Position numbers and translations under genes: made by a program
IMG/VR virus record: IMGVR_UViG_3300027499_000005
Span: 11,643-75,642 of that record
Reading direction: 5' to 3' (one strand)
DNA length: 64,000 bases
From: a virus
The notes under the pieces: generated by a model
Told to the model about the DNA's origin: nothing
Database searches by the model: none
What the model saw: the letters and a program-made list of their open reading frames with translations, nothing else
Shown: in pieces, positions 15,419 through 33,276 of the stretch
How positions within the stretch are numbered: position 1 is the stretch's first letter
Layout of the letters: the number at the start of each line of letters is the position of its first letter

Positions 15419-16930
15419 ATGAGATTTTCAGTAAGCGAATTTCGGGATATCATCAAGGAGGAAATCACAAGGGTATTGGATGAAGCAACAGCCGATCCTT
15501 CAGGACAAGATGAGCAAGGCTCTTTCAGACTTCCACCAATCAAGATTGCAGAAACTTGGGGTCGTCTGGAGAATGGTGACCGCGAGCGTTTATGGCGTTT
15601 TGCCAAGAATCTGCAAGGTGAAACTCTAGAAGCCAAAATTACACAAATTAACAAGTATCTCACAGCCCCGGCCAAAGGTGCAGATGTAAACGAGATTTTG
15701 TCTGTAATGATGATTACAGAAATTCTATCTAACATCCTTACAGACTTTACCGAGTCTGCCGCTGGCTTCATTTTTGAAGCTTTCTTAGCTGGTTTGTTCG
15801 GCAAAGATTCAGTCCAAATCGTAGACGTTGAAGGCGTCGAAGACGAGGACGATTCACAAGGCGAAGGTCAAAAAGGCAAGCCAATTACCGACGTTGTTTT
15901 AGGCGGAAAGCATTACTCCCTAAAGCTACTCAAAGCCAAAGGAATGTTGGATCCAAATACAGGTAAAAGGTCAGCAGGAACTCAAGTTAAAGGTTCTTGG
16001 AGAAACATGTTAAGCCACCTTTTGAGCCAACCAGAGGTAACTTATCTTGATGTTAGAAAAGAGGCTACTGGTCAGCAACTTTCGTTTGGCGAAGTCACTG
16101 TCAAACTAGAAAACTTGTATAAAATCTTTATTGATCCATTCTTGCAACCAGTTGCTAAAGGCAAAGCAGTAACTATTAAAGACGTAGATCAGTTTATCGA
16201 TCTTGTTATCAATCAGGCCAAAAATGATCTATTTATTGGAAGATCTGTGGTTGAATTGAAACCAAACCTTCCAGATGAAACTGAAGAATTCGTGAGACAA
16301 TACGCAAAGAGACGCCCCGGACCATTACAAGAAGATTTGAGTCCAAATGAGAGACAGTTTACATTTGATGATTTTGCAGACATGGCCAATAGCGACCCAG
16401 AGGTTCTAAGAGATAAATTTGAAGATGTAAAATTCCCAACCGATATGAAGTATCGCCCACTAAGTCAAGCTCCAATTCTATTCAGAATGTTTGGAGGTCC
16501 AGATAACATGCGTAAATTCTATGACCTATCCAAGCAATACGAAGAAAATCCAAGTCAGGAAACAAGAGCAGCGTTATTCGACATGATTAAAAAGCTGCCA
16601 GATGTTGTTGGCAAAGTTCAATTCGCATTCAGCCAAAAACAATTTGAAAGCATTTCTGAATTTAGACACATTGGCTCTTTGAACCTCGAAGAAGGCAGTC
16701 TAAAACAACTATGGCTACAGAACGCTCAATTACTAGAACAAACAATCGCACCTGTTTACCGTGCATTTGACGATTTCAGCAATAGCATAGAAAACTACTT
16801 TACATCAGGCCAAGGGGATTTCGGACGCAAAGCATACGGTGACAAAGCCATTACATCCTCCGCAGACTTAAACAAAACCACGACAGCAGCCGTTACAAAG
16901 ATGGAAGCTGCCCGCGACCAAAACAAGTAA
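15419..16930 (+). CDS. putative head-internal protein with PD-(D/E)xK-like nuclease motifs
   Basis: N-terminal EFRDIIKEE motif; GFIFEAFLAGL...KPITDVVLGGKHYSLKLL (E...D...SxK); AAGGG RBS supports ATG 15419. Confidence 0.5.
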   Translation: MRFSVSEFRDIIKEEITRVLDEATADPSGQDEQGSFRLPPIKIAETWGRLENGDRERLWRFAKNLQGETLEAKITQINKYLTAPAKGADVNEILSVMMITEILSNILTDFTESAAGFIFEAFLAGLFGKDSVQIVDVEGVEDEDDSQGEGQKGKPITDVVLGGKHYSLKLLKAKGMLDPNTGKRSAGTQVKGSWRNMLSHLLSQPEVTYLDVRKEATGQQLSFGEVTVKLENLYKIFIDPFLQPVAKGKAVTIKDVDQFIDLVINQAKNDLFIGRSVVELKPNLPDETEEFVRQYAKRRPGPLQEDLSPNERQFTFDDFADMANSDPEVLRDKFEDVKFPTDMKYRPLSQAPILFRMFGGPDNMRKFYDLSKQYEENPSQETRAALFDMIKKLPDVVGKVQFAFSQKQFESISEFRHIGSLNLEEGSLKQLWLQNAQLLEQTIAPVYRAFDDFSNSIENYFTSGQGDFGRKAYGDKAITSSADLNKTTTAAVTKMEAARDQNK

Positions 16931-16939
16931 TCGCCTCTT

Positions 16940-16975
16940 GACGCCCTGTTCTTTTGAGCAGGGCGTCTTTGTTTT
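16940..16975 (+). terminator. intrinsic terminator
   Basis: GACGCCCTGTTC-TTTT-GAGCAGGGCGTC then TTTGTTTT. Confidence 0.85.
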
Positions 16976-16982
16976 CAAAATG

Positions 16983-16992
16983 ACTATTTATT
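16983..16992 (+). promoter_or_regulatory. putative late promoter ACTATTTATT
   Basis: Directly after the terminator, 15 nt before ATG 17008. Confidence 0.75.
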
Positions 16993-17007
16993 GGGCGAGG
17001 TTCAATA

Positions 17008-17994
17008 ATGTATTCGTCGTTTAAGAAGCACCAACTCATAACCGAATCGTGGAGAAGGTTTCTTCTTGAAGCATCCGAAGAAGAGAAGAAGCATTTTGGT
17101 GATTGGATTGATGAAGAATTTCTTGATCAATTTCAAAAATATATATACGAAAAATCCCAAGATTATTACCTCGAAGAAGTTCCAACAGATAAGCTTAAGT
17201 TTATTGGGCAAGGTTCTTTCCGAGGAGTCTATCGTCCAAAGGGCGATAAGGATTATGTTGTTAAGTTTGCTCTTGGTGACGACGGCAGAGAAATGAATAA
17301 AACGGAATTTGAATTCCAAACCAAAAACGATTTATTTGCAAAAGTGTTTAAACATTCAGATGATTTTTCTTGGATTGTTATGGAATCTTTGAGAACAATT
17401 AAAAAGAATTCAGTTTTTAACGACTTCTTTCCGGAAATTGCAAGCATGTTTAACCAACTTGGAATGGAATGGCAGACCCACAGGTTTATAACAGAAACAG
17501 TTTTTGGTCCCTTGAAGGTTAATAATCAAAGCGGTGCTTTGTCCCAAAGCTCCCCAAGCGCATCCGGTTGGGATATTGCTTATAAGGATGTTATTATCGC
17601 TGCGTTCCATAGATCAGCATATCTTGACTCTCCTGAATTTCAGGATAAGATTCTTGTTCCTGGGTTGGAGGAATTGAGGAAAAAAATCGAATCAGAAGGC
17701 GATCCAGAAAAGCTGAATGAGTTTATGGAAATGCAAAAAAGTTTGTTTGATAAAAAACAATCCATTTCAATCAGAAAAGAACAAAGATTTAAATTATTAT
17801 TTTCAACCCTTGAAAAAATCCTTGAACAAAGACTTATTCAGTTTTGCATCAGCTTTCCTCTTGTTCAAAGAATAAGAAGGGTCATCAAAGACTTTGGACT
17901 TCTTCATTCAGAGATAAGAGTGCTTAATACCGGTGTTAACTCAAAAGGAGAATTCAAAATCTTGGATGCTTCGGTTGAAGAACAAATAGGATAA
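17008..17994 (+). CDS. atypical protein-kinase-like protein
   Basis: G-loop GQGSFRGVY, VVKFA lysine, helix-C Glu, hinge IVMESL, catalytic-loop HSEIRVLN, KILDAS. Confidence 0.65.
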   Translation: MYSSFKKHQLITESWRRFLLEASEEEKKHFGDWIDEEFLDQFQKYIYEKSQDYYLEEVPTDKLKFIGQGSFRGVYRPKGDKDYVVKFALGDDGREMNKTEFEFQTKNDLFAKVFKHSDDFSWIVMESLRTIKKNSVFNDFFPEIASMFNQLGMEWQTHRFITETVFGPLKVNNQSGALSQSSPSASGWDIAYKDVIIAAFHRSAYLDSPEFQDKILVPGLEELRKKIESEGDPEKLNEFMEMQKSLFDKKQSISIRKEQRFKLLFSTLEKILEQRLIQFCISFPLVQRIRRVIKDFGLLHSEIRVLNTGVNSKGEFKILDASVEEQIG

Positions 17995-18004
17995 ACTATT
18001 TATT
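17995..18004 (+). promoter_or_regulatory. putative late promoter ACTATTTATT
   Basis: Immediately after the stop, upstream of ATG 18055. Confidence 0.65.
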
Positions 18005-18054
18005 GTTAAAAAGTGTGTCGCGACATTTTATGTTAAAATCAAAAGGAGAATGAG

Positions 18055-18333
18055 ATGAAACTTACAGTGAATCAACTTCGTCGCATTATTAAGGAAGAAG
18101 TTGCAAGAACCCTTGGTGAAGCTCGCGGAGCAATCAACGAAATGACATTACCAGAAATGTATGAGCAATTTATCAGCGCGCTGGAGGCCGAGCTATCGGA
18201 TCCAGATACACAAGAAACCGCATTGGCCGGTCTTCGCAGATTGCTGGGAGTTAAGGTTAGTGATGAACTACTTGCCCGTGAAAAAGCAGCTCGCGAAGAG
18301 AAGAAAGCCAAAGGCGAGAAATTTAATATTTGA
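18055..18333 (+). CDS. small protein with QLRRIIKEE N-terminal motif
   Basis: MKLTVNQLRRIIKEEV; AGGAG RBS. Confidence 0.8.
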   Translation: MKLTVNQLRRIIKEEVARTLGEARGAINEMTLPEMYEQFISALEAELSDPDTQETALAGLRRLLGVKVSDELLAREKAAREEKKAKGEKFNI

Positions 18334-18354
18334 TTCTTAACCTTGTCCAACCCG

Positions 18355-18385
18355 AATGCCCTGTCTTTATGGCAGGGCGTTTTTG
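18355..18385 (+). terminator. intrinsic terminator
   Basis: GCCCTGTC-TTTAT-GGCAGGGC then GTTTTT; resembles the 16940 terminator. Confidence 0.8.
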
Positions 18386-18397
18386 TTTGTTGCTCTC

Positions 18398-18405
18398 CTA
18401 TTTAT
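18398..18405 (+). promoter_or_regulatory. putative late promoter CTATTTAT
   Basis: After the terminator, 17 nt before ATG 18423. Confidence 0.7.
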
Positions 18406-18422
18406 CCTACTAGGGGAACATA

Positions 18423-18773
18423 ATGAAAATCACAATAAACCAACTTCGTCAGATTATCAAGGAAGAAATCTCAAAATCTGCTTTGATGAAAGAAATGAAC
18501 GACTTTGCAGAAGAAGATGCTGCTTGGAAAGCTTTCACAACAGCGGTGAAAAATGCCAAACCTCACGACAATCTATTGAGTGATATTCTGCATGGTAGTC
18601 TTGAAAAGCTTGTTTATGTTATGCCGTATAACCCACAACTGAAGTCTATCCAATCAGACTTGTTGGATCAAATCAAACAGGATCTGTCTGCCGAAGAACA
18701 AATGGAAATAATCGATGGTCTGGAGGATAGAGTAAGGGAAGCTCTTGGATTTGAAGGTGAAGGATACTACTGA
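18423..18773 (+). CDS. small protein with QLRQIIKEE N-terminal motif
   Basis: MKITINQLRQIIKEEI. Confidence 0.8.
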   Translation: MKITINQLRQIIKEEISKSALMKEMNDFAEEDAAWKAFTTAVKNAKPHDNLLSDILHGSLEKLVYVMPYNPQLKSIQSDLLDQIKQDLSAEEQMEIIDGLEDRVREALGFEGEGYY

Positions 18774-18799
18774 TCTGAGCGGGTGCTATTTACCTTATA

Positions 18800-19234
18800 A
18801 TGCTCAAGAAACTTATCTTCGGTTTTGCTATCGCAATCATTCTTCTTGCTTGCGTTGTTGTTGAGACAGCGGAAAAAAGTATTATCGAGGTTGTCCAGTA
18901 TGAATGGTGGAGTCTAAAGCAAGCAAACCTCTTTATCTCGGAGGATGCTTGCTTTTATATTGATCCAAATAACTTGCTGCTTTATATTCATTATGTTGAT
19001 TCAGGAGATTACTGGACTTATAACCTTGAATATGATGTGAATAAAAATGTCTTTTCTGTTGCAGATACTTCATTCTCTTTTTGGTTTCTTGGAGAAGAAG
19101 AAGCCCCAGAGGTTATTGTGAAGATGGGCGGATTGCAAAAGAAAAGCGAAATGGCCTTGTGCTATCCGCCAGATACGGTCGCGACCAGACTTGTCGAAAA
19201 CGTCTCCAAAATGGTAAGGTTTGTTATAAACTAA
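18800..19234 (+). CDS. putative lipoprotein / exported protein
   Basis: MLKKLIFGFAIAIILLAC signal with a lipobox-like LLAC. Confidence 0.6.
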   Translation: MLKKLIFGFAIAIILLACVVVETAEKSIIEVVQYEWWSLKQANLFISEDACFYIDPNNLLLYIHYVDSGDYWTYNLEYDVNKNVFSVADTSFSFWFLGEEEAPEVIVKMGGLQKKSEMALCYPPDTVATRLVENVSKMVRFVIN

Positions 19235-19244
19235 ACTATTTATT
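19235..19244 (+). promoter_or_regulatory. putative late promoter ACTATTTATT
   Basis: 17 nt before ATG 19262. Confidence 0.7.
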
Positions 19245-19261
19245 GACGGAGTGCCCAAAAA

Positions 19262-19567
19262 ATGAAAATGCGTTTGCTTATGGAAAACTGGTCTAACTAT
19301 GTTGCTGAGAATGAGGAGAAGACTCTCGATGAGGGTCTTGCGAACAAAGCGGCTGCTATTCCAGTTTTAGTTGCTGCCTTGTGGGGCGCAGATGCCACGA
19401 AACATGGTGATGTGACAACCCCTGTCAAACATGTACTCGATGTAATGCAGGTCGTTGCTAACGAGATCCCTGAAGGAGAGGAAATCAACGCTGCTAGCTT
19501 TATGGAGGCTCTTGCTACTAAGCTGGCGAATAAAGCAAGCGAAGTTGTATCTGGTGAGGAAGACTGA
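19262..19567 (+). CDS. small hypothetical with MKxLMENW N-terminal motif
   Basis: MKMRLLMENWSNYVAENEEKTLDEG. Confidence 0.75.
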   Translation: MKMRLLMENWSNYVAENEEKTLDEGLANKAAAIPVLVAALWGADATKHGDVTTPVKHVLDVMQVVANEIPEGEEINAASFMEALATKLANKASEVVSGEED

Positions 19568-19896
19568 TGAAAGTATCTCAGGATCGACTTCGCCAAATCA
19601 TCAAGGAAGAAGTCACAAAACAAATCAGCGAAATCGTTGGTGACTTGACTATTCCTTATGATGATGAGACTTTGACAAAGGCCGGTATTCTTGGACCCCA
19701 CGGCAAGCCAAGACCAAGGAAGCCAATCTCTCCTTTCATTCCTTGGGAAGAAGTTAGCGATGAAGCTAAACAAATCGCTAGTGAACTTGAGAATGCCGAA
19801 GACTTCCGTGTTCTTGTTGGCCACAGTGAAACAACTTCTCTTGTACAGAAAGTGCTTGATTTATTGCGCCGCAAAGGTGTAGGATTCGGTGAATGA
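19567..19896 (+). CDS. small protein with RLRQIIKEE N-terminal motif
   Basis: MKVSQDRLRQIIKEEV; TGATG overlap. Confidence 0.8.
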   Translation: MKVSQDRLRQIIKEEVTKQISEIVGDLTIPYDDETLTKAGILGPHGKPRPRKPISPFIPWEEVSDEAKQIASELENAEDFRVLVGHSETTSLVQKVLDLLRRKGVGFGE

Positions 19897-20690
19897 TGAA
19901 ACTATTCGAAGCTAAGTGGAGACAGTTTATCAACGAAGAAGTTTCTCCTTCAAAGACTGCTTACTTTTTTGATTTTGATGAAACCTTGGCATTTGATAAG
20001 AATCCAACATATCTTTATTTTTTCGATAATGAACAAACTGCTGATGATCCAATCGCCAAGCAACTTCAAAGTAAAGAAGAACCAAGTCCTGTTTTTGACG
20101 CCGAAGGCGGCGAGATTATCGATCCATCAACTGGCGAACAAGCTGCTGGTTGGGTATATCAGGTAATCGAAGACCAACATACTCTTGACAAAATGACAAA
20201 GCAGTTTGATAATGATCAAAATCGTCATCGTTTTTTCTTTGATTATTCTCGCTCTAGAATCGTTAACGAACCAACAATCAATGTTCGTGTTATGAATATC
20301 TTCCTTAACAAGCTGCAAGATTCTCAAAATAATACTGTTTGCATCTTGACCGCTCGCGGTTCTGATGTTCAAGACGATTTGATGAATCTTTTCGATGATC
20401 TTCTCCGTCAAAAGAAAAGACAAACCTCTGTTCTCTCTGACCTTCACATTTTTACACTCGGATCAGGAGAATATGGCACAAGATCAAAAGGCGAGTTCAT
20501 GGCTCAGTATTACCGCGAGAATCCTGAAGTTCAGAACGTTGCATTCTATGAGGATTCTGAAACAAACTTGGCCGGTGCAAAGGCAGCATTTGAGAATCCA
20601 GAGTTCAGAATGATGCTTGAAGAGCGCGGCGGAAATGCTGTTATTTACAAGGTTGTCCACGGCGATCCACAAGTTTATTTGACCGTTTGA
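19893..20690 (+). CDS. HAD-superfamily phosphatase
   Basis: Motif I FDFDETL, motif II ILTARG, motif IV FYEDSETNL. Confidence 0.8.
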   Translation: MMKLFEAKWRQFINEEVSPSKTAYFFDFDETLAFDKNPTYLYFFDNEQTADDPIAKQLQSKEEPSPVFDAEGGEIIDPSTGEQAAGWVYQVIEDQHTLDKMTKQFDNDQNRHRFFFDYSRSRIVNEPTINVRVMNIFLNKLQDSQNNTVCILTARGSDVQDDLMNLFDDLLRQKKRQTSVLSDLHIFTLGSGEYGTRSKGEFMAQYYRENPEVQNVAFYEDSETNLAGAKAAFENPEFRMMLEERGGNAVIYKVVHGDPQVYLTV

Positions 20691-20693
20691 TCA

Positions 20694-20735
20694 GATATAA
20701 CACCTCAGAACTATTTATTGTCTGAGGTGTATATC
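20694..20735 (+). promoter_or_regulatory. late promoter motif in the loop of an RBS-occluding hairpin
   Basis: ACACCTCAGA / TCTGAGGTGT 10-bp stem with loop ACTATTTATTG; the right arm contains SD GAGGTG of ATG 20738. Confidence 0.75.
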
Positions 20736-20737
20736 AA

Positions 20738-22237
20738 ATGTCAGGATTCGCCCACAAAACTTACGGTACTGTCCAAATCGGCGGTCCTAATACTTCCTTT
20801 GATGAAATAAGAGTTGCAGAGCTTACACCTGTTGCTCAATGTGATTACGCATACGGCATAAATACCGATGTTGTAAATACAATCACATTTGCTGGCGGGA
20901 CCGTAACGCACGAAAACGGTATGGCTTCTGTCAATACTGGTACAGGTTCAACTGGTATCGCTGATGTTTCTTTGCGCCGTATCTTAAAGTATCGTGCTGG
21001 CGTTGGATCTTTGTCCAGAGCTACTGCTATGTTTGACACGCCTATCGCAAACACGACACAACTTGTTGGTCCCTCTAATGCGGAGTGTGGTTATTTCTTT
21101 GGATACACGGGAACAAACTTTGGCATTTTTCACTTTGAAAGAGGACAGAGAGAGATAAGAAAACTAACAGTCTCTACTGGTGCTGGAACAGGGTTGGTTA
21201 CTGTAACTTTGGATGGTGTATCGGTACAAGTTCCTGTCACTGGTGGTAGCAACGTCAATCGCACTTCCTACGAGTTGGCACGATACGATTATTCAAATGT
21301 TGGCGATGGTTGGTTGGCAGACGCTATTGATGGTACTGTGTTCTTTTTGTCTTCCCGGCCAAGTTCTCACACCGGTTCTTACTCGGTAAGCGATAACTCT
21401 ATTACTGGATCGTTTAGTTCCATTACTGCTGGTAGCGGTAGTTCTGTTGCATTTATTCCGCAAAGCACTTGGAACATAGACAAAATGGATGGTACCGGAC
21501 AAAGCAGAATGGTATTGAATCCCCAGAAAGGCAACGTCTACCAAATAGGGTTTCAATACCTTGGATTCGGAAATGCGTTCTTCTCTATTGAAGATAGCAA
21601 AACAGGTAGACCTGCACCAGTTCATATGATTGAGAACACAAACAACCGTACAACGCCTGTATTGAAGAACCCGCAAGTAACTTCCAGAGTCGTTGCTATT
21701 AACAATGGCAATACTTCAAACTTGTCAATCAAAACTGTTAGTATGGCGAACTTTACAGAAGGTAAAGCAGTAAAACTTGATCCAAGATACTCACATTCTT
21801 TCAACTATTCCGCCGTTAATACTGCTGGTGCTTTTCAGCCAATCGGTGCGTTAAAAGTCAATAGAGTATTCAACAGCCTAACCTGTTTTGGTGAAATGGA
21901 TTTGTTGAGAGTTGGCGCTTCAAATGAAAGTACTTCCAAGAATCTAACCATCGCCTTGTACAAAGGTGTCAGAATAAATGGAAACGTAAACTTTCAATAT
22001 GTAAGTCAAAACAACAGTATTGTATCGTATGCTATCCTTACACCGGGAACAGATACCATCACTACAAACGGGGCTGTTCCATTTTTGATTTTCCAAGTAG
22101 GCTCAAATAACGCTACTTCAATAGACATAATACCGGATGATTTTATTATCGCAGCAGGAGAAGTAGTTGTTGTAGCCGTATCTACTACTGGTCCAGTAAG
22201 CGGTGACTTTACAGTAAACTGGTATGAGCAACAATAA
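20738..22237 (+). CDS. beta-rich putative virion structural protein
   Basis: 499 aa, G/T/S/N-rich, late motif upstream; no catalytic motifs seen. Confidence 0.6.
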   Translation: MSGFAHKTYGTVQIGGPNTSFDEIRVAELTPVAQCDYAYGINTDVVNTITFAGGTVTHENGMASVNTGTGSTGIADVSLRRILKYRAGVGSLSRATAMFDTPIANTTQLVGPSNAECGYFFGYTGTNFGIFHFERGQREIRKLTVSTGAGTGLVTVTLDGVSVQVPVTGGSNVNRTSYELARYDYSNVGDGWLADAIDGTVFFLSSRPSSHTGSYSVSDNSITGSFSSITAGSGSSVAFIPQSTWNIDKMDGTGQSRMVLNPQKGNVYQIGFQYLGFGNAFFSIEDSKTGRPAPVHMIENTNNRTTPVLKNPQVTSRVVAINNGNTSNLSIKTVSMANFTEGKAVKLDPRYSHSFNYSAVNTAGAFQPIGALKVNRVFNSLTCFGEMDLLRVGASNESTSKNLTIALYKGVRINGNVNFQYVSQNNSIVSYAILTPGTDTITTNGAVPFLIFQVGSNNATSIDIIPDDFIIAAGEVVVVAVSTTGPVSGDFTVNWYEQQ

Positions 22238-22248
22238 AGAGGTAACAA

Positions 22249-22647
22249 ATGTCAGCAAACTTCCATTACAACTCTGGCGTCTACGCAGTCGGTCAATACC
22301 AAATGAGCGCAAAGCCTTATGCGACAGGTTCGCTCGCTGTTACTTCTGGAACTCCGTTAGAGGTTAGTTTCCCATTTGTCACAAAGTTTGTCACAATCAA
22401 GAACTCCACAACAGGATCTAACTCTACTATGCGCGTTGGATTTTCGGCAAATGGCGTAAACGGAACAAACTATTACACTTTGGAAAACGGCGAAAGTTAC
22501 ACAGCAGACCTTCGCGTTGTCTCTGTATTCTTACGCGGTGATGTTGCGCCTTGTACTGCGACAGTTATTGCGGGACTCACTGGTATTCAGTCTGAACTTC
22601 GTGATACATCTGGGCCTAACTATTCTGGTTCAGTAGGCGTCGGCTGA
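22249..22647 (+). CDS. small putative virion structural protein
   Basis: 132 aa, T/S/G/V-rich; GAGG RBS. Confidence 0.6.
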   Translation: MSANFHYNSGVYAVGQYQMSAKPYATGSLAVTSGTPLEVSFPFVTKFVTIKNSTTGSNSTMRVGFSANGVNGTNYYTLENGESYTADLRVVSVFLRGDVAPCTATVIAGLTGIQSELRDTSGPNYSGSVGVG

Positions 22648-22699
22648 TTATTGATTATCTGTCTTTCAGAACTACTTATAGTGTTATAAAGGGCAGACA

Positions 22700-24172: not shown

Positions 24173-24173
24173 G

Positions 24174-24446: not shown

Positions 24447-24459
24447 AGGATCATTAGTA

Positions 24460-27216
24460 ATGTCTCTTCGTATCAATATTGGCCGACAAAATCTGAAAGA
24501 AGCTAAACAGCTTATTCTTGAGTTCTCTGAAGCTCAGAAAAAAGAGCTTATGGCTATCGAAAATCAGTTTACAGTTTCATATGAAATCGAACTAGAAAGT
24601 CGTGGTAGCATGTTTTCTGGTGACGGTGGAGGTGGAAACGCCGAAGAGGAATACGAGAGGGCCAAAGAATCTGCCCAAGAACAATACAGAGAAGCAAAAG
24701 AAACAGAAAGACTAGAAGATGCATGGTGGCAATACGATGATGCTGTAAATCGTGGATCACATAGCGGCCCTCACGACGCAGCCAAAAACGTTCTTGAGTA
24801 TCTTTGTAATGAAGGAGATCTCGACGGTGTAAGTGCATCTGTTGATTTATCATCAGATACATTTTTGGCAGAAGTATGTATCTTTCTTATTGGGTGTGAA
24901 GTACAATCTGACGTTGCACAAGCGTTTCATAAAGATCTAATAAAACAACTGGACATTCATGGAACTAACTTGCTTTTGCAACTTGCAAGAAAATACGAAG
25001 ATCTCGGTGAGAAACTTCGTGGTCCTGTAAACCTTGCTGCTGGTATAGCTTTGTCTACAGGCAAAATAAAATCACAAATCACCGATCCTCTTGGAATCGA
25101 GACTTACCAGATTGCTGATTATCTTGTTGCTGGCAAGATTCCATCTGACTTGCTAGATCCCGGTACCCAAGCGAACATAATGGCAGAAGGTATGAAAGAG
25201 TTCATCTCCCGTTATTATTTTGATCTTGGAGGATCCTTCGAAATAAACCTAGGTTATGAGGCCGAAGAAGTAAACTTCGCTGAGCCTACCTTCAGGGAAC
25301 TTTGTTCTGCTCTCAATCTTTCGAATAGCTACGAAGCTTTGTTCGAAAGAGGTGCTAGGTATCTGAACAACACTCTAGCTGATGGAAGCGAAACATTATT
25401 GGAAGTTTGTGAAATACTAGGTAGAAATGCTAGGTTTGCAAAGAATAGTCCTACAAAAGTAAATCTTGTGCGATCAATCAACCAGAATGTAGGACTCCCG
25501 CTTTATAGCTCTATTGATGATTTTGTTGATGAAATGATGAACATGTGGGAAAGAGAGAATAGCCTAGAAGATTTTTATGATCGCTACGGGTACCCTGTTG
25601 ATGACTCGGATGAGCAGTATCTCGCAGAGACATACTCTGATACAGTTAGTCGATACCTACCAAGATTTTACAAGAGATTTGGTAAAGAACTGAAGTTCGA
25701 ATCTGATGGTTCTCTTGACACCCAGCGAGGTTTGGAGTTCTCTTGTGAGACTTACCTAGACGGACTTCAGGAAGCAATGGACTTCTTGGATCTTTTCTTC
25801 ACTGACTACGATGATCAAGATTTCTTGTATCTTTCCGAAAAGACAGGTATGCACATCAACATTGGTCATAAGTCTGTTGGTAACGGCGAAGAGGCAGATT
25901 TTAATCTAATCAAAGGATTCTTGTATCTAAGCGAAGATGTTGATGATGCTTCTAAACGCTTGGGTGCAGGGAAAGTTGCAAGAGCTAGAAAGGGACTTCC
26001 AACTTCTAGAATAAACTCTAGATGGGCAGGTGCGATAGCACCAACAACAAAGCTTGGTGAGGTTGCTCAGGAAGCAAAGGCTAGAGTACTTGCAGACTAC
26101 ATTGCAGATGCCAGCCACTTGTCGGGCAAGATGAGTCCGTTCTACAAAAAAGGAAAAGGATTCGATGTTGCCGAGATTGGTAATGACTTCCTTGATTCTC
26201 TAAAGACCGGCGAAATGTCAATGATCGAAAAGCTATTCAGTGATTCTCTTTATGGTAAAGCTGCTGATCTTGGTTCGAAGAGTGTCGGCTTTAACATCAA
26301 CTATTCACGCGGAAAGTTTGGAGATGACGACATCAAATACGTCGAGTTCAGATTCCCCGGTCACCAGATTGATGTAGAAGCAGCCAAAGATTTGACTTTG
26401 TACTATGCTTTCTTGGTTCGACACATGGTTGACAAATCCTACATGAGAGAAGATTACACCAAGAAGTTGGTTGCTCTTCTCAGTAGATCAGCAGAAGCAA
26501 TGTTACCAACAGGCGACCAGCTAAACATGGTTCTCAAGCCTGGAAATCTAATCTTCGTTGACACACGCCGCCCAGCAGAGGGAATAGACGATTTGGTTGA
26601 GATGGTGGATAACATGACAGCATTAAAAGACTACTTGTTGTTCGCAAATGAACCAGATCCAAACATCAAAAATACGAATGTGTTTCAGATTCCTTTAAAA
26701 AAGCTTCGTCTTTCTGCTAGAATAGATCGTACAACAGTCGGACCATTTATTATGGCTTACTGTAAGCTAAAAGGAGAACCTATTTTTGAGTGGAAAGACT
26801 ACGGACTCAGAATGCCTAGTGTATTTAGTCGTGGTGGTTGGAGTTCGACACCAGCTATAATAACTGAAGTTTCTGGCGAAGGAGCTACTGCCAAAGTAAA
26901 GATTGAGTTGTATACGTTATCAACTGACAGCGGAGAAATACCACCAGAATACACAGGTAATGACTATCTCTTATCAACTCCAGACTATTCTCCCGTCAAA
27001 GTTATTCGCTTGACCGGCACCCTGACTGGTGCTGACATTATAAGCTTACTAACTTCGAAGTCTGGGCTGATGTCGAGCATGTATCCAACTAGAAAAGGTA
27101 ATGTGTCTGCTGACCATTTCACGAAAGTTTCTAAGATCGCTAAAGAACTCAAGCAGTTCTTCGATCAAAACAATGGTGAAGTACCATTGACTCCTAATGC
27201 TGGGGATTTACGATGA
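24460..27216 (+). CDS. putative amidoligase (COOH-NH2 ligase type 2) with a large insertion
   Basis: SYEIELE, ESDGSL, GLEF, TGMHINIG and YVEFRFPG motifs in canonical order. Confidence 0.75.
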   Translation: MSLRINIGRQNLKEAKQLILEFSEAQKKELMAIENQFTVSYEIELESRGSMFSGDGGGGNAEEEYERAKESAQEQYREAKETERLEDAWWQYDDAVNRGSHSGPHDAAKNVLEYLCNEGDLDGVSASVDLSSDTFLAEVCIFLIGCEVQSDVAQAFHKDLIKQLDIHGTNLLLQLARKYEDLGEKLRGPVNLAAGIALSTGKIKSQITDPLGIETYQIADYLVAGKIPSDLLDPGTQANIMAEGMKEFISRYYFDLGGSFEINLGYEAEEVNFAEPTFRELCSALNLSNSYEALFERGARYLNNTLADGSETLLEVCEILGRNARFAKNSPTKVNLVRSINQNVGLPLYSSIDDFVDEMMNMWERENSLEDFYDRYGYPVDDSDEQYLAETYSDTVSRYLPRFYKRFGKELKFESDGSLDTQRGLEFSCETYLDGLQEAMDFLDLFFTDYDDQDFLYLSEKTGMHINIGHKSVGNGEEADFNLIKGFLYLSEDVDDASKRLGAGKVARARKGLPTSRINSRWAGAIAPTTKLGEVAQEAKARVLADYIADASHLSGKMSPFYKKGKGFDVAEIGNDFLDSLKTGEMSMIEKLFSDSLYGKAADLGSKSVGFNINYSRGKFGDDDIKYVEFRFPGHQIDVEAAKDLTLYYAFLVRHMVDKSYMREDYTKKLVALLSRSAEAMLPTGDQLNMVLKPGNLIFVDTRRPAEGIDDLVEMVDNMTALKDYLLFANEPDPNIKNTNVFQIPLKKLRLSARIDRTTVGPFIMAYCKLKGEPIFEWKDYGLRMPSVFSRGGWSSTPAIITEVSGEGATAKVKIELYTLSTDSGEIPPEYTGNDYLLSTPDYSPVKVIRLTGTLTGADIISLLTSKSGLMSSMYPTRKGNVSADHFTKVSKIAKELKQFFDQNNGEVPLTPNAGDLR

Positions 27217-27575: not shown

Positions 27576-27588
27576 AACATTCGGAAAA

Positions 27589-27792
27589 ATGAAGGATTTC
27601 CAGATCGGAGATCTAGTGTGGTGGACTGACCTCAAGAAAATAAAGAAAAGAACGGTTGGAATCATCCACGAAATCAAAAAAGAGCTAAAAGGCGGTCGAG
27701 AAGTCTTGATCGCTAAGGTCTATTGCGTCGAAACTCAAGAATACAAGCAGATTCTTCTCGCAATACTACATAAAGTAGAAGACGAAAACTAG
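27589..27792 (+). CDS. orphan SH3/KOW-like GDL-family protein
   Basis: MKDFQIGDLVWW...VGIIHEI. Confidence 0.7.
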   Translation: MKDFQIGDLVWWTDLKKIKKRTVGIIHEIKKELKGGREVLIAKVYCVETQEYKQILLAILHKVEDEN

Positions 27793-27820
27793 TTATACAG
27801 GTATTTTGGAGATTTTTCGA

Positions 27821-28519
27821 ATGGGTTTTAAGATTTACAACTATTCTCCGAACAAGTTCAGAGGCATGATCAAGCTTTTGAGAATGTTTTTGCCTTTTGC
27901 AAAGGAAGAACTTGGATTCGATAAGGATCCTGTCATAAAACTGCTTGATCGCGAGCTAGATAAGGCAGAAATCCTCGGAAAAACAGCTTTTTACGACCCA
28001 GAAAAGATGATTATTTCGGTTTATACGCACGGAAGGCACCCAAAAGACATTATGAGATCGATTGCACATGAACTAGTGCATCATTTGCAAGCTTGTCGTG
28101 GTGATTTAGGGAATGGTGAAGAAACCGATCCCGGTTATGCACTCAAAAATGATCATTTAGCCGAAATGGAACGTGAAGCATATGAACAAGGCAATATGTG
28201 TTTCAGGAAATGGGAGGATTTGTACAAACAAGATCCAGAATCCATGAAGTCTTACTTAACAAAAGTAGATTTCGAACAACAAGAACTACAGGAGAAGCCT
28301 ATGAAACCATTAAATGAATGGAAAAACGAAGAAATCTTCGGAATGCTTATGGAACGCTTTGTTCCAGAAGGTAAAAAGTACTCTTCTAAGGAAGAACTTG
28401 CTTCTATGATGCCACCAAAAGATAAAGTCACCCAAGCTGACGTATTAAAGGCCCGTGGAGCTATCGAAGAAGAGCAAGAAGATGAAGAACTTCTTGAGAT
28501 TGTAGACGAAGAAGAGTGA
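27821..28519 (+). CDS. HExxH zincin-like metallopeptidase with an acidic C-terminal module
   Basis: RSIAHELVHHLQ...EREAYE; GGAG RBS for ATG 27821. Confidence 0.75.
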   Translation: MGFKIYNYSPNKFRGMIKLLRMFLPFAKEELGFDKDPVIKLLDRELDKAEILGKTAFYDPEKMIISVYTHGRHPKDIMRSIAHELVHHLQACRGDLGNGEETDPGYALKNDHLAEMEREAYEQGNMCFRKWEDLYKQDPESMKSYLTKVDFEQQELQEKPMKPLNEWKNEEIFGMLMERFVPEGKKYSSKEELASMMPPKDKVTQADVLKARGAIEEEQEDEELLEIVDEEE

Positions 28520-28528
28520 TAATCTAAT

Positions 28529-30127: not shown

Positions 30128-30129
30128 CC

Positions 30130-30138
30130 ACTATTTAT
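30130..30138 (+). promoter_or_regulatory. putative late promoter ACTATTTAT
   Basis: 15 nt before ATG 30154. Confidence 0.7.
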
Positions 30139-30153
30139 CTAAAGGAGTTTATT

Positions 30154-30357
30154 ATGGGACGAAAGAAGAGAAGGATGTTTTTGGCTGGACTAGCTGCCAG
30201 AAGCGAAGAAGTGGTAGCACCAGTTGCTGCTCCTACTCCAGAGGTTGTTGTAGAACAACCAGTTGTAGCAGCAGAACCAGTTCCTGTTGTCGAAGTAGAA
30301 GAACCAGTTGCTGCTAAACCAGTAGCTAAAGTAACCAAAGCTGTCAAAGCTAAGTGA
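30154..30357 (+). CDS. small low-complexity (E/V/A/P) protein with a basic N-terminus
   Basis: MGRKKRRMF...VVAPVAAPTPEVVVEQPVV; AAGGAG RBS. Confidence 0.7.
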   Translation: MGRKKRRMFLAGLAARSEEVVAPVAAPTPEVVVEQPVVAAEPVPVVEVEEPVAAKPVAKVTKAVKAK

Positions 30358-30365
30358 GGATTCAC

Positions 30366-32420
30366 ATGACTTCTGAGCTTTTATTAGAAGGCGGTGTCGC
30401 TGGACACATGAGCCACCTTTATGATAACTATGGCTTATCATTTTCTCAAATCAAAGATGTCTTTACCAAGGCCGCAAATGGCGAGTTGGAAGGGACCGAG
30501 AAAACTGATGGTCAAAACTTGTTTATTTCTTATGACGTAAAAACCGGCAAAGCCAAAGGTGCGCGTAACAAAGGAAATGTCAAAGATGGTGGTCTTGATG
30601 CCTCTCAACTAGCTCAGAAGTTTGGTGGTCGTGGAGCTTTGGAGTTTACATTCTCTGAGGCTCTATCTGCTTTCGAAGAAGCAGTTAGTATGTTTTCAGA
30701 AGAAGAACAAATAGAGATCTTTGGTCCAGATACCAACATCTATTACAACTGTGAGATTCAGGATCCTCGTACTGCAAATGTTATCAACTATGATATCAAA
30801 ACTTTGTCAATCCACCGCCTTGGCGGTGCAGAGTTCGACCGAGAAACCGGAAACAAAACAGATCGTGATGTTACCGAGAATGCTGTCAAACTAGAGAAAG
30901 CTTTGGAACGTGTGCAAGACGAAAAGAAATCAGAGTACGGAGTCGCATTTGATGCTATAAGGCGTCTAAAGGCTTTGGATGATAAGACTGTTCTCCAATC
31001 AGCTATCGACCGCCTAGAGGCTGTTATGAACGAATACGGCGTTTCTGACAACGAGACTATAGGTGATTATATCGTGGTTCGTCTTGGTCTGACAATCGAT
31101 AAGAGATTGCCAGCTTTGCCGGAAGATAAAAAAGCTGCTTTGATCAAGCGTATCCTAAATGTCAAGGGTGTGTCAATCAAACAAGTGACTGATGGGCTTA
31201 GTAAAGAAGAAGCGCAAACGGTCAAGGAGTTTATTGGGAAAGCACCAGCTATCATGACAGCCTTGATTAGACCAATCGAAGAAGTTGTTCACGACTTCTC
31301 GGTTGAAATGCTAAAAACACTAGAATCAGCATTCGTTCTTGATAACAAGAAGGAAGTTGAGAGACTTCGTGGTGAAGTATCAAAAGCCGTAGATGCTATC
31401 GAGTCATCAGACAACGAAGAAGCAATGGAAATCCTTAAGAAGCAAATGGAGAAACTGAAGTCTGTCGAGAATATCAGTACTGCTGCCGAAGGATTTGTGT
31501 TTGCTTACGATGGACACAGCTACAAGTTCACTGGCAACTTTGCCCCGATGAATCAGCTACTTGGTCTATTCAAGTATGGCCGCGGCAATGTACCACCACT
31601 ACAAAAACTAGATGAGAACGAATCAATCGAAATAATACCAGAGGCCGATGGTTCAACTCAAACTGTTGGTGTATTCGCTGGATCTTTTAAGCCGCCACAT
31701 AAAGGTCACATGGCAGTTGTAGAATATCTAGCAAAGAAGTTTGATAAAGTACTTGTATTTGTTTCGGATCCGAAGAGCGCAGCTTCTGTCAGAATGAACC
31801 TGAATGCTTCAAAAGCTGCTGAGATATTTAATATTTACATTGCTGCTGCTGGTCTAGCTGATAGAGCAATGGCGATTGGATCTGAGCTTCCGAGTCCTTT
31901 AACAGCGGCGTTTACTTACGCTGAAAAGGAACAGTTTAGTCCAAGAGCAAAACTGTATTTTGCAGTATCTTCGAAGGATGCTGATAGATTTGCTAAGTTG
32001 AATGCTGCTCCTTTTTTGGAGAAGAACCCGACTTTAGATTCACTAGAGGCTGTCGTTATTCCTGCTATTACTGGTCCACAAGGCGAGATCTCGGCTAAAC
32101 AACTGAGAGCTATAATAGCAGATACAAATCTGAGTAGAGAAGATAAGGAAGAACAACTAGTAGCTTACTTACCTGACTTCTTAGAAGAAGATGATAGAAG
32201 GATGGTTTATAACATAATGATGCCAAGTGAAATAGTTGAAGTTATGAACCAAATGTTTGAGGATATATTAGCTGAGATATCTAAAGAGTCTAAAGAGGTC
32301 GAAGATATAGAAATATTAGATGAAATGTCAGCTATGGGTCTTGGATCAGTTGGTGGTTTTTCAAGACCATTAATCACTACTAAATCAAAACCTAAAAAAT
32401 CACTACCAAAAAAGAAATAA
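30366..32420 (+). CDS. fusion of a KxDG ligase/nucleotidyltransferase-like domain and an HxGH (cytidylyltransferase-like) domain
   Basis: GHMSHLYD...TEKTDGQN, AEGFVF; C-terminal FAGSFKPPHKGH and ISAKQLR; alternative GTG start at 30354. Confidence 0.65.
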   Translation: MTSELLLEGGVAGHMSHLYDNYGLSFSQIKDVFTKAANGELEGTEKTDGQNLFISYDVKTGKAKGARNKGNVKDGGLDASQLAQKFGGRGALEFTFSEALSAFEEAVSMFSEEEQIEIFGPDTNIYYNCEIQDPRTANVINYDIKTLSIHRLGGAEFDRETGNKTDRDVTENAVKLEKALERVQDEKKSEYGVAFDAIRRLKALDDKTVLQSAIDRLEAVMNEYGVSDNETIGDYIVVRLGLTIDKRLPALPEDKKAALIKRILNVKGVSIKQVTDGLSKEEAQTVKEFIGKAPAIMTALIRPIEEVVHDFSVEMLKTLESAFVLDNKKEVERLRGEVSKAVDAIESSDNEEAMEILKKQMEKLKSVENISTAAEGFVFAYDGHSYKFTGNFAPMNQLLGLFKYGRGNVPPLQKLDENESIEIIPEADGSTQTVGVFAGSFKPPHKGHMAVVEYLAKKFDKVLVFVSDPKSAASVRMNLNASKAAEIFNIYIAAAGLADRAMAIGSELPSPLTAAFTYAEKEQFSPRAKLYFAVSSKDADRFAKLNAAPFLEKNPTLDSLEAVVIPAITGPQGEISAKQLRAIIADTNLSREDKEEQLVAYLPDFLEEDDRRMVYNIMMPSEIVEVMNQMFEDILAEISKESKEVEDIEILDEMSAMGLGSVGGFSRPLITTKSKPKKSLPKKK

Positions 32421-32426
32421 TATAAA

Positions 32427-32435
32427 ACTATTTAT
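32427..32435 (+). promoter_or_regulatory. putative late promoter ACTATTTAT
   Basis: 25 nt before ATG 32461. Confidence 0.7.
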
Positions 32436-32460
32436 ATAGTCAATAATAAGGAATCACTAC

Positions 32461-33276
32461 ATGATCAGCAGACAAGAAATACTAGAAGAACAAATGCTTA
32501 GAAAAGCTATCAGAGGATTTCTAAAGAAGAAGATCACTGAAGGATTACAATCTAATAATAAGGAGATTCATATCCTTGGTCAAGTGATCAAGACAAAATC
32601 TTTACAACTTGAAGCCAAGACAGGCTCGGCTTCACCCGATGCTCCGCTTGATATTACAGCTATGAACTTTCTTCGTGACTTGCTTCGTAATATTGTACCA
32701 GTTGTTCAGTCAGCTTACAAGTCTTTAACGACAGATGTTAAACAAAGAGATTCTTACAAAGCTCACGTTCTTGCTTCCGTGGAAGATATCATGGATACCG
32801 AGTCAGCTAGCCCCGGTGAGCAAAGTGATGGGGCAAGCTCAGAGAGTGAACTAGAGGAAGAGATCAATATCGATCTTGGTGATGACGATCCTACACCTGA
32901 AGGTTTTATTGAAATCGAACCAGAAGAGGAACCCGAAGAGGTAGAACCTGAGCTATCACCAGAAGAAGAGTTTTCACAAAACTTAGGTTTGAATGACAAG
33001 GGATTAGACACCACAGGCCGTCAGCAAGCAATGGAAACAATGAACTCCGTATCGAAGCAGATTGCTGATATGTTCAGAAAGATCGATCCAGACAGTCGTG
33101 TTTCCACTGACAAAGTACCTGAGCTATCACAAGCATATCCAGAACTTGTCAAAGATGGAGGTGTCTCAGAACGCTCTGTGTTCAAAACTTATCTGCTTAA
33201 GAACTTGATGCTCTACTTTGACCGCTTCGAATCAGAACTAAACGCTAACCCACAAGCACCTCAAGTGAAAATCTGA
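32461..33276 (+). CDS. acidic hypothetical (possible head scaffold/core-like protein)
   Basis: ILEEQMLRKAIR N-terminus, long E/D/P-rich tract. Confidence 0.6.
   Translation: MISRQEILEEQMLRKAIRGFLKKKITEGLQSNNKEIHILGQVIKTKSLQLEAKTGSASPDAPLDITAMNFLRDLLRNIVPVVQSAYKSLTTDVKQRDSYKAHVLASVEDIMDTESASPGEQSDGASSESELEEEINIDLGDDDPTPEGFIEIEPEEEPEEVEPELSPEEEFSQNLGLNDKGLDTTGRQQAMETMNSVSKQIADMFRKIDPDSRVSTDKVPELSQAYPELVKDGGVSERSVFKTYLLKNLMLYFDRFESELNANPQAPQVKI

What the first reader, a model, noticed from the sequence alone, without database searches (positions are those of the whole stretch)
15419..33276. Shared N-terminal 'address' motifs on unrelated enzymes: a candidate capsid-loaded effector payload
Seen: MRFSVSEFRDIIKEEI (15419), MKLTVNQLRRIIKEEV (18055), MKITINQLRQIIKEEI (18423) and MKVSQDRLRQIIKEEV (19567). 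A second type: HQLITESWRRFLLEA (17008), MKMRLLMENWSNYV (19262), MMKLFEAKWRQFINEE (19893) and internal MKPLNEW...LMERF (about 28300). Also QNLKEAKQLILEF (24460) and ILEEQMLRKAIR (32461). The motifs are followed by L/I-x-E sites (VLDEA, AINEM, TLDEG, LLLEG). Downstream domains are unrelated: nuclease-like, kinase-like, HAD, amidoligase, ligase/NTase. Knowledge: T4 internal proteins carry an N-terminal capsid-targeting sequence removed by the gp21 protease after (I/L)-x-E. Inference: a modular signal-peptide system that loads many enzymes into the head for delivery with the DNA.
Basis: partly seen in the sequence, partly recalled or inferred. Interest (0 to 1): 0.8.

Follow-up and report, generated by a model that had tools for sequence, protein, structure and literature searches.

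The report
Capsid-address leaders on phage enzymes
Seven neighbouring genes of an uncultured T4-type phage, including a kinase-like, a nuclease-like and a phosphatase-like enzyme, begin with one of two short shared peptide tags that most likely load them into the virus head and are then cut off, as phage T4 does with its few internal proteins, but the same tag occurs on thousands of protein families in uncultured phages.

Summary
The core observation holds. The window belongs to a 147-kb T4-superfamily phage with a gp20 portal, an S77 gp21-type prohead protease and a gp23 capsid protein. Seven genes within 5.3 kb (15419-20690) start with one of two leaders.

- Type 1 (MKxTxxQLRxIIKEE[VI]..L.E) is on four genes.
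- Type 2 (..LLxE[SG]WRKF[LIV]xE-A) is on three genes.

The cargoes are unrelated to each other. Conservation is at the peptide level, not the DNA level.

A type-1 profile finds 8255 protein clusters in 1.84 billion representatives. In 142 of the best 150 a copy sits at the N-terminus. Both leaders contain T4-protease-type (L/I)-x-E sites. Prohead-core-like genes next to the protease carry the same leader, and a strand-specific promoter-like motif links the leader genes to the head and tail genes.

A T4-like capsid-targeting propeptide is the best reading (about 0.6), but all the evidence is circumstantial and there is no virion proteomics. This scan has already noted analogous leaders, with other sequences, in many other T4-like genomes.

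Verdict: a new variant of a known kind.

The parts
15419..16930 (+). 503-aa cargo gene with a type-1 leader (residues 1-22, nt 15419-15484, ending V-L-D-E|A). The true start is ATG 15419, not the upstream TTG. The cargo is weakly PD-(D/E)xK nuclease-like.
   Evidence: Profile E 7e-11. ACTATTTAT lies 31 nt upstream of the ATG. The AF2 model has a helix at 5-24, disorder at 25-49 and a fold from about residue 50. Foldseek's top hit is restriction endonuclease 3ndh, prob 0.96, E 0.037. In 60 homologues the N-terminal region varies but L20 and E22 are kept.
17008..17994 (+). 328-aa protein-kinase-like cargo with a type-2 leader (residues 1-21, nt 17008-17070, ending F-L-L-E|A).
   Evidence: The same 20-residue leader sits on non-homologous 170-, 319- and 356-aa proteins in L041/L042. 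Atlas feature score is 0.96 to clusters with Pkinase or Phage_T7_kinase, and structural matches begin at about residue 30.
18055..18333 (+). 92-aa acidic helical protein with a type-1 leader (nt 18055-18120, ending L-G-E|A, with a further I-N-E|M site).
   Evidence: Profile E 2e-15. In 13 orthologues residues 8-16 are invariant and the N-terminal 30 residues are the best conserved part.
18423..18773 (+). 116-aa acidic protein with a type-1 leader (nt 18423-18464 up to I-K-E14).
   Evidence: Profile E 6e-13.
19262..19567 (+). 101-aa acidic protein with a type-2 leader (nt 19262-19333, with V-A-E16 and L-D-E24|G).
19567..19896 (+). 109-aa protein with a type-1 leader (nt 19567-19632, ending I-S-E22|I).
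   Evidence: Profile E 1.5e-10.
19893..20690 (+). 265-aa HAD-like hydrolase with a type-2/hybrid leader (nt 19893-19937, F-I-N-E15). The DxD motif FDFDETL follows within about 12 residues.
   Evidence: Weak Pfam Hydrolase hit over residues 23-232. The L042 orthologue has the same HAD core behind a canonical type-2 leader ending F-V-V-E|A.
15387..15395 (+). ACTATTTAT promoter-like motif. Further copies lie at 16983, 17995, 18398 (a variant), 19235, 20710, 30130 and 32427.
   Evidence: 15 copies on the + strand against 0.9 expected, and none on the - strand. They lie 18-59 nt upstream of leader genes and of the protease, scaffold-like, sheath and baseplate genes.
20738..22237 (+). 499-aa virion structural protein homologue without a leader. 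It marks this region as a late, virion-associated block.
   Evidence: phrog_1645, 1.4e-27. tblastn hits to annotated virion structural proteins of cyanomyophages.
24460..27216 (+). 918-aa amidoligase-like protein. Its N-terminus is leader-like in style but matches neither leader profile, so its membership is doubtful.
   Evidence: Homologue N-termini read MKITI..NL.EA..LL.E-F. Atlas score 0.89 to Amidoligase_2 clusters, a lead only. No profile hit.

Best explanation
The two leaders are capsid-targeting propeptides of the T4 type. Each is a short amphipathic N-terminal helix with a heptad-like spacing of hydrophobic residues. It docks the nascent protein onto the scaffolding core while the prohead assembles. 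The gp21-type S77 protease then removes it by cutting after Glu in an (L/I)-x-E site: I12-K13-E14 and/or [LIVM]20-x-E22 in type 1, and F-[LIV]-x-E|A in type 2. The mature cargo stays inside the head and enters the host with the DNA. Cargoes here are a kinase-like protein, a nuclease-like protein, a HAD-type hydrolase and four small acidic proteins. What is shown: the leaders, their portability between unrelated cargoes, the presence of the protease, and the link to the head-gene module. What is inferred: docking to the core, cleavage, packaging and injection.
For: (1) The genome encodes a T4 portal, an S77 prohead protease and a gp23 capsid protein. (2) The MCP aligns with T4 gp23 so that T4's cleavage site F-L-T-E|A falls on L-L-K-E|S. 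The scaffold-like 374-aa and 274-aa head proteins have the highest [LI]xE density in the genome, 4.3-5.1 against 1.24 per 100 aa. This suggests that the protease specificity is retained. (3) In type 1, I12 and E14 are nearly invariant (61/61 and 60/61 in the IMG/VR sample; 274/285 and 283/285 in the 150 best database hits). A second [LIVM]xE peaks at E22. Past that point the sequence becomes D/P/G/A-rich linker. (4) Type 2 ends F-[LIV]-x-E-A, like the T4 IPII/IPIII CTS ...F-I-A-E|A read from the T4 record. (5) Head-module genes carry the leader. The gene upstream of the protease here scores E 0.002. Gp67-like 80-100-aa acidic genes next to the protease in four of five related phages score E 3e-6 to 8.5e-5. 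In L045 a 586-aa protein with a type-2 leader lies directly after an S77 protease. T4 gp22 itself starts MLKEQLIAEA. (6) The leaders are portable: the cargoes are unrelated. In relatives, type 2 precedes complete NUDIX and RNase_T domains. The 15419 family carries various leaders that all end in a conserved L-x-E (E in 56/60) before a disordered linker. (7) All five leader-bearing IMG/VR records with a head region on the contig have an S77 protease, and four of them also show a gp23-type capsid gene (the fifth contig ends just after the protease). This includes the only complete genome. The other five records are fragments lacking both. (8) The leader genes share the ACTATTTAT motif with the protease, scaffold, sheath and baseplate genes. 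(9) Literature: the 10-residue T4 CTS is sufficient for packaging. Targeting maps to its residues 4 and 7 and processing to residues 8 and 10. The CTS has been proposed as an evolutionary device for packaging diverse proteins (PMC9026906, PMC3012670).
Against: There is no virion proteome, and no cultured phage carries the motif, so packaging and cleavage are untested. The mature parts are acidic (pI 4.4-5.5), unlike the basic T4 internal proteins. Type 1 is longer than the T4 CTS and shows no significant sequence similarity to it. The residue after E14 is Glu, whereas every T4 site read here (IPII, IPIII, gp23) has Ala at that position. Only 26 of 61 type-1 leaders have [LIVM]xE exactly at positions 20-22. 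Many database proteins carry internal leader copies, which T4 does not show. [LI]xE sites are frequent in any Glu-rich helix.
Confidence: 0.6

Rival explanations
1. The leader does target proteins to the prohead core. The small acidic leader proteins (18055, 18423, 19262, 19567) would then be accessory scaffold or core components, like T4 gp67 and gp68, that are degraded or expelled at maturation. They would not be effectors delivered to the host.
For: They are small, acidic and helical, like T4 gp67. Gp67-like head-module genes bear the same leader. Gene 18055 has one of the highest [LI]xE densities in the genome.
Against: This does not explain leaders on full enzyme domains: kinase-like, HAD, NUDIX and RNase_T. 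Arrays of up to about 23 different leader genes per contig are many more than a core would need.
Confidence: 0.18
2. The leader is a generic coiled-coil or interaction helix that directs proteins to some other phage or host assembly, such as a replication or takeover complex or a chaperone. It would have no role in the capsid and would not be cleaved.
For: Hydrophobic residues are spaced like a heptad repeat, and the helix is highly charged. Internal copies occur inside longer proteins. The cargoes are acidic rather than basic.
Against: The best non-cargo matches to the leader are genes flanking the prohead protease. The invariant residues are exactly I-x-E. The 15419 family keeps only L-x-E within an otherwise variable N-terminal region. 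The promoter-like motif is shared with structural genes.
Confidence: 0.14
3. The genes form one fast-evolving paralogous family. Only its N-terminal segment stays conserved, so the leader is not a portable signal.
For: The genes are clustered and many are orphans: 149 leader proteins gave essentially no Pfam domains.
Against: The cargoes include recognisably different folds and Pfam domains. Orthologues of a single cargo carry different leaders. Identical leaders sit on non-homologous proteins.
Confidence: 0.04

Closest known systems
Phage T4 capsid targeting sequence (CTS, MKTYQEFIAE) of internal proteins IPI, IPII and IPIII, removed by the gp21 prohead protease (Mullaney & Black 1996, as reviewed in PMC9026906 and PMC3012670)
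   Same: A short N-terminal tag shared by otherwise unrelated proteins. It ends in (L/I)-x-E. The genome encodes a gp21-type S77 protease and T4-type head genes. The scaffold or core proteins have a similar N-terminus. Type 2 ends F-[LI]-x-E-A, as the T4 CTS does.
   Different: The leaders are 15-24 residues long instead of 10, and there is no significant sequence similarity to the T4 CTS. Two leader classes coexist in one genome. Cargoes include large enzyme domains and are acidic, whereas the T4 internal proteins are basic. The scale is far larger: 7 genes here, up to about 23 per related contig, and 8255 protein clusters in public data. Internal repeats of the leader occur in polyprotein-like ORFs. 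Function is untested.
T4 Alt (ADP-ribosyltransferase) and the prohead core proteins gp22, gp67 and gp68, all processed by gp21
   Same: Alt is an enzyme packaged in the head and injected. The core proteins sit next to the protease gene and are cleaved at L/I-x-E. Here an acidic gp67-like gene and the gene upstream of the protease carry the leader.
   Different: The Alt N-terminus read from the T4 record (MELITELFDE) does not resemble the IPII/IPIII CTS, whereas here enzymes and core proteins share one leader. No homology to Alt, gp67 or gp68 was detected.
Propeptides of head and inner-body proteins of giant phages phiKZ, 201phi2-1 and SPN3US, cut after Glu by gp21-related proteases (PMC5694885, PMC7411985)
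   Same: Many head-internal and ejection proteins are processed after Glu, with several redundant sites within a propeptide.
   Different: Those propeptides are long and do not share a common leader sequence. Their cleavage motif is read here from memory as S/A/G-x-E; it was not checked in the papers. The phage studied here belongs to the gp23/gp20 T4 lineage.
Other CTS-like leader families noted earlier in this scan (for example MIKLKDLLKE in uncultured marine T4-like phages)
   Same: The same architecture and the same inferred mechanism, in genomes with S77 proteases.
   Different: The leader sequences differ. The MKITxxQLRRIIKEE and ..ESWRKFLxEA leaders were not found among earlier notes.

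Membership tests
T4-type capsid targeting sequence / gp21-processed packaged proteins | The genome encodes a gp21-type (Peptidase_S77) prohead protease with T4-type portal, scaffold and gp23 capsid genes. | tested here: met
   PF03420 107 bits, PF07230 263 bits, PF07068 239 bits. A scaffold-like 374-aa coiled-coil gene lies between the protease and the MCP.
T4-type capsid targeting sequence / gp21-processed packaged proteins | The same short leader sits at the extreme N-terminus of otherwise unrelated proteins. | tested here: met
   Four type-1 and three type-2 genes start at the ATG. No cargo similarity remains after trimming. 142 of the 150 best database hits have an N-terminal copy.
T4-type capsid targeting sequence / gp21-processed packaged proteins | The leader ends in the protease site (L/I)-x-E. 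| tested here: met
   I12-K13-E14 in 60/61 leaders. [LIVM]xE at positions 20-22 in 26/61, and within residues 17-30 in 51/61. Type 2 ends F-[LIV]-x-E-[AE]. The homologous MCP site is L-K-E|S.
T4-type capsid targeting sequence / gp21-processed packaged proteins | Sequence similarity to the T4 CTS MKTYQEFIAE. | tested here: inconclusive
   Only a resemblance: M-K start, hydrophobic-I-x-E, and F-L-x-E-A in type 2 against F-I-A-E-A. The sequences are too short for a statistical test, and a tblastn search with the type-1 consensus leader against cultured phages found no T-even phage.
T4-type capsid targeting sequence / gp21-processed packaged proteins | The leader alone is sufficient to encapsidate a foreign protein. 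| not testable with these tools
   Needs fusion experiments in a cultivable host-phage pair.
T4-type capsid targeting sequence / gp21-processed packaged proteins | The proteins are present in mature virions with N-termini that begin after the Glu. | not testable with these tools
   No cultured relative in the phage collection and no proteome available.
T-even internal proteins (IPI/IPII/IPIII class) | Small, basic proteins (as recalled for the T4 IPs; not checked here). | tested here: not met
   The predicted mature parts have pI 4.4-5.5 and net charge -3 to -18. Three are enzyme-sized at 250-480 aa. So these are not IP homologues, although they may use the same loading route.
T4-type capsid targeting sequence / gp21-processed packaged proteins | Expressed late, together with the head genes. 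| tested here: inconclusive
   A shared strand-specific ACTATTTAT motif lies upstream of leader genes and of the protease, scaffold, sheath and baseplate genes. Its role as a late promoter is inferred, not shown.

The most novel reading that the evidence does not exclude
Uncultured T4-superfamily phages use a small set of interchangeable 'capsid address' leaders as a general cargo system. Thousands of protein families would be involved: kinases, nucleases, NUDIX and HAD hydrolases, exonucleases and many orphans. Some are strung together as multi-leader polyproteins that the prohead protease would cut into several cargoes. All would be packed into the head and injected as a first-strike arsenal far larger and more diverse than T4's.
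Probability: 0.4. Interest if true: 0.8.

Novelty: new variant of a known kind. Interest (0 to 1): 0.62.

Why it matters
If the leaders work as inferred, a gene's first 20 codons are enough to read out which proteins a large group of uncultivated aquatic phages delivers into the cell together with the DNA. That gives a catalogue of thousands of candidate early-acting host-takeover and anti-defence proteins, enzymes included. It shows that T4's three-to-four-protein system is the small end of a widespread modular mechanism. It also offers new natural tags for packaging foreign proteins in T4-like capsids. The polyprotein-like multi-leader ORFs would be a new use of the prohead protease.

Tried and rejected
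- **DNA repeat or promoter cassette.** Rejected as an explanation for the shared starts: the upstream DNA is unrelated and codons differ synonymously.
- **Known family for the motif.** Pfam and PHROGs gave nothing for the leader. Full-text searches for RIIKEE-type strings found no paper.
- **Cultured relatives.** blastn and tblastn against 50,697 phage records gave no close relative and no cultured phage with the leader. The only hit was one uncultured 484-kb phage at E 0.1.
- **Single-protein scans for orthologues of 19893 and 17008** in IMG/VR found nothing.
The narrower alignment A7 worked.
- **VIA-align wide search of the 15419 model** was dominated by its C-terminal helical hairpin and told nothing about the core.
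- **Gp23 search on five leader-bearing fragments** found no head module, so those records neither support nor contradict co-occurrence with the protease.
- **Type-2 profile on the type-1 loci L006-L034** found nothing. Type 2 is therefore confined to a narrower lineage.
Full report
**What the window is**

The window is bases 11643-75642 of a 147,374-bp IMG/VR virus record with an estimated completeness of 81%. Nearly all genes lie on the + strand. Outside the window the genome encodes:
- a T4-type large terminase;
- a gp20 portal (PF07230, 263 bits);
- a Peptidase_S77 gp21-type prohead protease (PF03420, 107 bits; genome 115403-116011);
- a gp23 major capsid protein (PF07068, 239 bits).

No cultured phage is close at the DNA level. 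The region of the finding also holds a homologue of cyanomyophage 'virion structural proteins' at 20738-22237.

**The observation: type-1 leader**

Four genes start exactly at their ATG with M-[KR]-x-[ST]-x-x-x-[LF]-R-x-I-I-K-E-E-[VI]. They are at 15419, 18055, 18423 and 19567.
- A profile built from them, and a later one built from 42 leaders, finds these four at E 1e-10 to 2e-15 among 2340 six-frame ORFs of the genome. The only other significant hit (E 0.002) is the N-terminus of the gene just upstream of the prohead protease.
- The DNA upstream of the four starts is unrelated and the shared codons differ synonymously. Selection therefore acts on the peptide, not on a DNA repeat.
- For 15419 the longest ORF starts at a TTG 72 nt upstream. 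A promoter-like ACTATTTAT lies 31 nt before ATG 15419, and an AAGGG lies just before that ATG. This makes the motif N-terminal here too.

**The observation: type-2 leader**

Genes 17008, 19262 and 19893 share ..[LI]-x-E-x-W-[RS]-x-[FY]-[LIV]-x-E within their first 25 residues.
- That word occurs nowhere else in the six frames of the genome. The pattern was derived after the fact, so this count alone is weak.
- Independent support comes from relatives. In two contigs that carry orthologues of 18055 (L041, 82 kb; L042, 22 kb), eight more proteins start with the same leader. The consensus is MK..LL.E[SG]WRKF[LIV].E-A. Two non-homologous L042 proteins share the full 20-residue MYSSFKKHQLITESWR.. 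version of 17008.
- A scan of IMG/VR with a leader-only alignment found three further contigs. In L046, a 188-kb contig, the leader precedes a NUDIX domain that starts at residue 31. A minimal form (MNDIKWQQFLTEA) precedes an RNase_T exonuclease domain that starts at residue 42. Both domains score above Pfam's cut-offs.
- In L045 a 586-aa protein with a type-2 leader lies directly downstream of an S77 protease.

**What did not hold**

- The 'internal' site near 28300 gives no hit to either profile.
- The start of 32461 gives no hit either.
- The LLLEG at 30354 is missing from the L041 orthologue, which starts further in.
- 24460 has an N-terminus that is conserved among its own homologues and similar in style (MKITI..NL.EA..LL.E-F), but it matches no leader profile. 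I leave it open.
- The payload supported by evidence is therefore the 5.3-kb cluster 15419-20690, not the 18 kb claimed.

**Portability of the leaders**

- With the first 28 residues removed, no two leader proteins of the window are similar. Only orthologous pairs across genomes match.
- The HAD-like 19893 and its L042 orthologue keep the same core (FDFDETL...) behind different versions of the leader.
- The 15419 family has more than 120 homologues, many from marine samples and on contigs of 160-183 kb. Their N-terminal 20-45 residues vary greatly. One feature is kept just before a variable acidic linker and the conserved mature start LP.IKI.E.WG: an L-x-E, with L in 47/60 plus 12 I/M/V, and E in 56/60. 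The closest homologue, 89% identical, carries a different and longer leader. The window's copy has the compact type-1 version.
- The AlphaFold model (mean pLDDT 83) shows a detached helix at 5-24, disorder at 25-49 and a folded body from about residue 50.

**How widespread it is**

- A leader-only scan of IMG/VR gave 29 loci. In them, 78 profile hits fall almost always on an ATG, on proteins of 35 to 584 residues. One contig (L018) has about 20 consecutive genes that all start MKITKRQLKRIIKEE.
- The 42-sequence profile, searched against 1.84 billion cluster representatives, finds 8255 at E <= 0.001.
- Of the 150 best, 142 have a copy at residue 1. Of those 150, 127 also have a second or third copy 60-300 residues further on, and two thirds of these internal copies still begin with Met. 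The list is ranked by summed score, so multi-copy proteins are over-represented.
- Whole-record searches find 12 leaders in a complete 298-kb genome, and 13, 23, 17 and 3 leaders in four fragments.
- 149 such proteins have essentially no Pfam domain.
- No Pfam model, no paper in the library and no cultured phage carries the motif.

**Evidence for the mechanism**

- Residue conservation in type 1. The most invariant leader residues are I12 and E14 (61/61 and 60/61 in the IMG/VR sample; 274/285 and 283/285 in the best database hits). A second [LIVM]-x-E peaks at E22. After it the sequence turns into a D/P/G/A-rich linker.
- Comparison with the T4 CTS. In the T4 CTS, targeting maps to residues 4 and 7 and processing to I8 and E10 (PMC9026906). 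T4 IPII and IPIII read MKTYQEFIAE|A in the T4 record. Type 2 ends F-[LIV]-x-E-A.
- Capsid protein cleavage site. The capsid protein here aligns with T4 gp23 so that T4's cleavage site F-L-T-E|A falls on L-L-K-E|S.
- Site density in head proteins. The two head-module proteins most like scaffold or core have the highest [LI]xE density in the genome (4.3 and 5.1 per 100 aa against 1.24). This is what a retained gp21-like specificity would predict.
- Leaders on head-module genes. Here the gene before the protease carries the leader. In four of five related phages a gp67-like acidic gene of 80-100 aa beside the protease carries it (E 3e-6 to 8.5e-5). In L045 the gene after the protease carries a type-2 leader. 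T4's own scaffold protein gp22 begins MLKEQLIAEA.
- Co-occurrence with T4-type head genes. All five leader-bearing IMG/VR records that include a head region have an S77 protease, and four also show gp23; the fifth contig ends just after the protease. The five without either are fragments of 11-50%.
- Shared promoter-like motif. ACTATTTAT occurs 15 times on the + strand (0.9 expected) and never on the - strand. It lies 18-59 nt upstream of six leader-region genes (five confirmed leader genes plus 32461) and of the protease, scaffold-like, sheath and baseplate genes. This suggests co-expression with the structural genes, but its role as a late promoter is inferred.

**The cargo**

| Gene | Reading | Evidence |
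|---|---|---|
| 17008 | Protein-kinase-like | Atlas 0.96 to clusters with Pkinase or Phage_T7_kinase; structural matches start near residue 30 |
| 15419 | Conserved D...S-x-K pattern; weakly restriction-endonuclease-like | Foldseek 3ndh prob 0.96, E 0.037; Atlas hint RE_Eco47II |
| 19893 | HAD-like | Weak Pfam hit plus a DxD motif |
| 18055, 18423, 19262, 19567 | Small acidic orphans | |

All predicted mature parts are acidic (pI 4.4-5.5). That differs from the basic T4 internal proteins.

**Verdict**

The best reading (about 0.6) is a T4-type capsid-targeting propeptide system with two leader classes, carried by enzymes and small proteins.
- The main rival (about 0.18) accepts loading into the prohead but sees the small acidic proteins as accessory core components rather than delivered effectors.
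- An interaction helix unrelated to the capsid (about 0.14) and a paralogous family (about 0.04) are less likely.
- Nothing here shows packaging or cleavage directly. The evidence is comparative and positional.
- The principle is known from T4, and the literature already suggests that the CTS lets T4-like phages package diverse proteins.
- What is new is the pair of leader sequences, their attachment to recognisable enzymes, the scale (thousands of protein clusters) and the multi-leader ORFs.
- Earlier notes of this scan report the same kind of leader, with other sequences, in many other T4-like genomes. This is therefore one more instance of a pattern the scan keeps finding, not a singular discovery.

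Noticed in passing
database proteins P0015, P0016, P0017, P0023, P0056, P0130; also L018:281-1090 and L018:6700-7494: Single ORFs hold two or three full type-1 leaders 60-300 residues apart. Most internal copies still start with Met, so they look like fused cargo genes or polyproteins. If these ORFs are real, the prohead protease could cut them into separate cargoes. Gene-calling or assembly artefacts are not excluded.
   Followed up: partly
window 15387, 16983, 17995, 19235, 20710, 30130, 32427, 55930 and further copies outside the window: ACTATTTAT occurs 15 times on the + strand (0.9 expected) and never on the - strand. It lies 18-59 nt upstream of structural genes and leader genes, so it is a candidate late promoter that differs from T4's TATAAATA (only 3 copies).
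   Followed up: partly
window 22249-22647, and genome 116466-116885 (outside the window): The 132-aa gene in the leader region looks like a paralogue of the 139-aa gene just downstream of the prohead protease. Both start MS..F.Y..G...VG..Q.S..P. A similar gene is in L042 (10690-11106). Judged by eye only.
   Followed up: no
window 18800-19234: A 144-aa protein with a lipoprotein-like signal (..ILLAC-VVVE) lies between the leader genes. It is conserved in L041 (2278-2709). It carries no leader, so it presumably takes a different route.
   Followed up: no
window 18055-18333 and orthologues P0003, P0007, P0014: Some orthologues carry a coiled-coil insertion of about 68 residues between the leader's L-G-E-A-R-G and the next A-I-N-E site, that is, between two candidate protease sites.
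   Followed up: no
window 27806-28519: The protein has an HExxH metallopeptidase-like motif (HELVHH). By comparison with the L041 orthologue, the real start is probably ATG 27821, not TTG 27806.
   Followed up: no
L045:3388-5740: In an IMG/VR contig a 586-aa Pfam-less protein with a type-2 leader lies directly after the S77 protease gene, in the place where scaffold or core genes are expected.
   Followed up: partly
window 15419-16930 family (alignment A4): A widespread family of about 450-530 aa in marine and freshwater phages. It has invariant motifs (..E.AGGF.FE.F.AGLFG.., PITDV, YSLKLL) that suggest a PD-(D/E)xK-type nuclease core, and a propeptide-like N-terminus ending in a conserved L-x-E. 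It has no Pfam model.
   Followed up: partly
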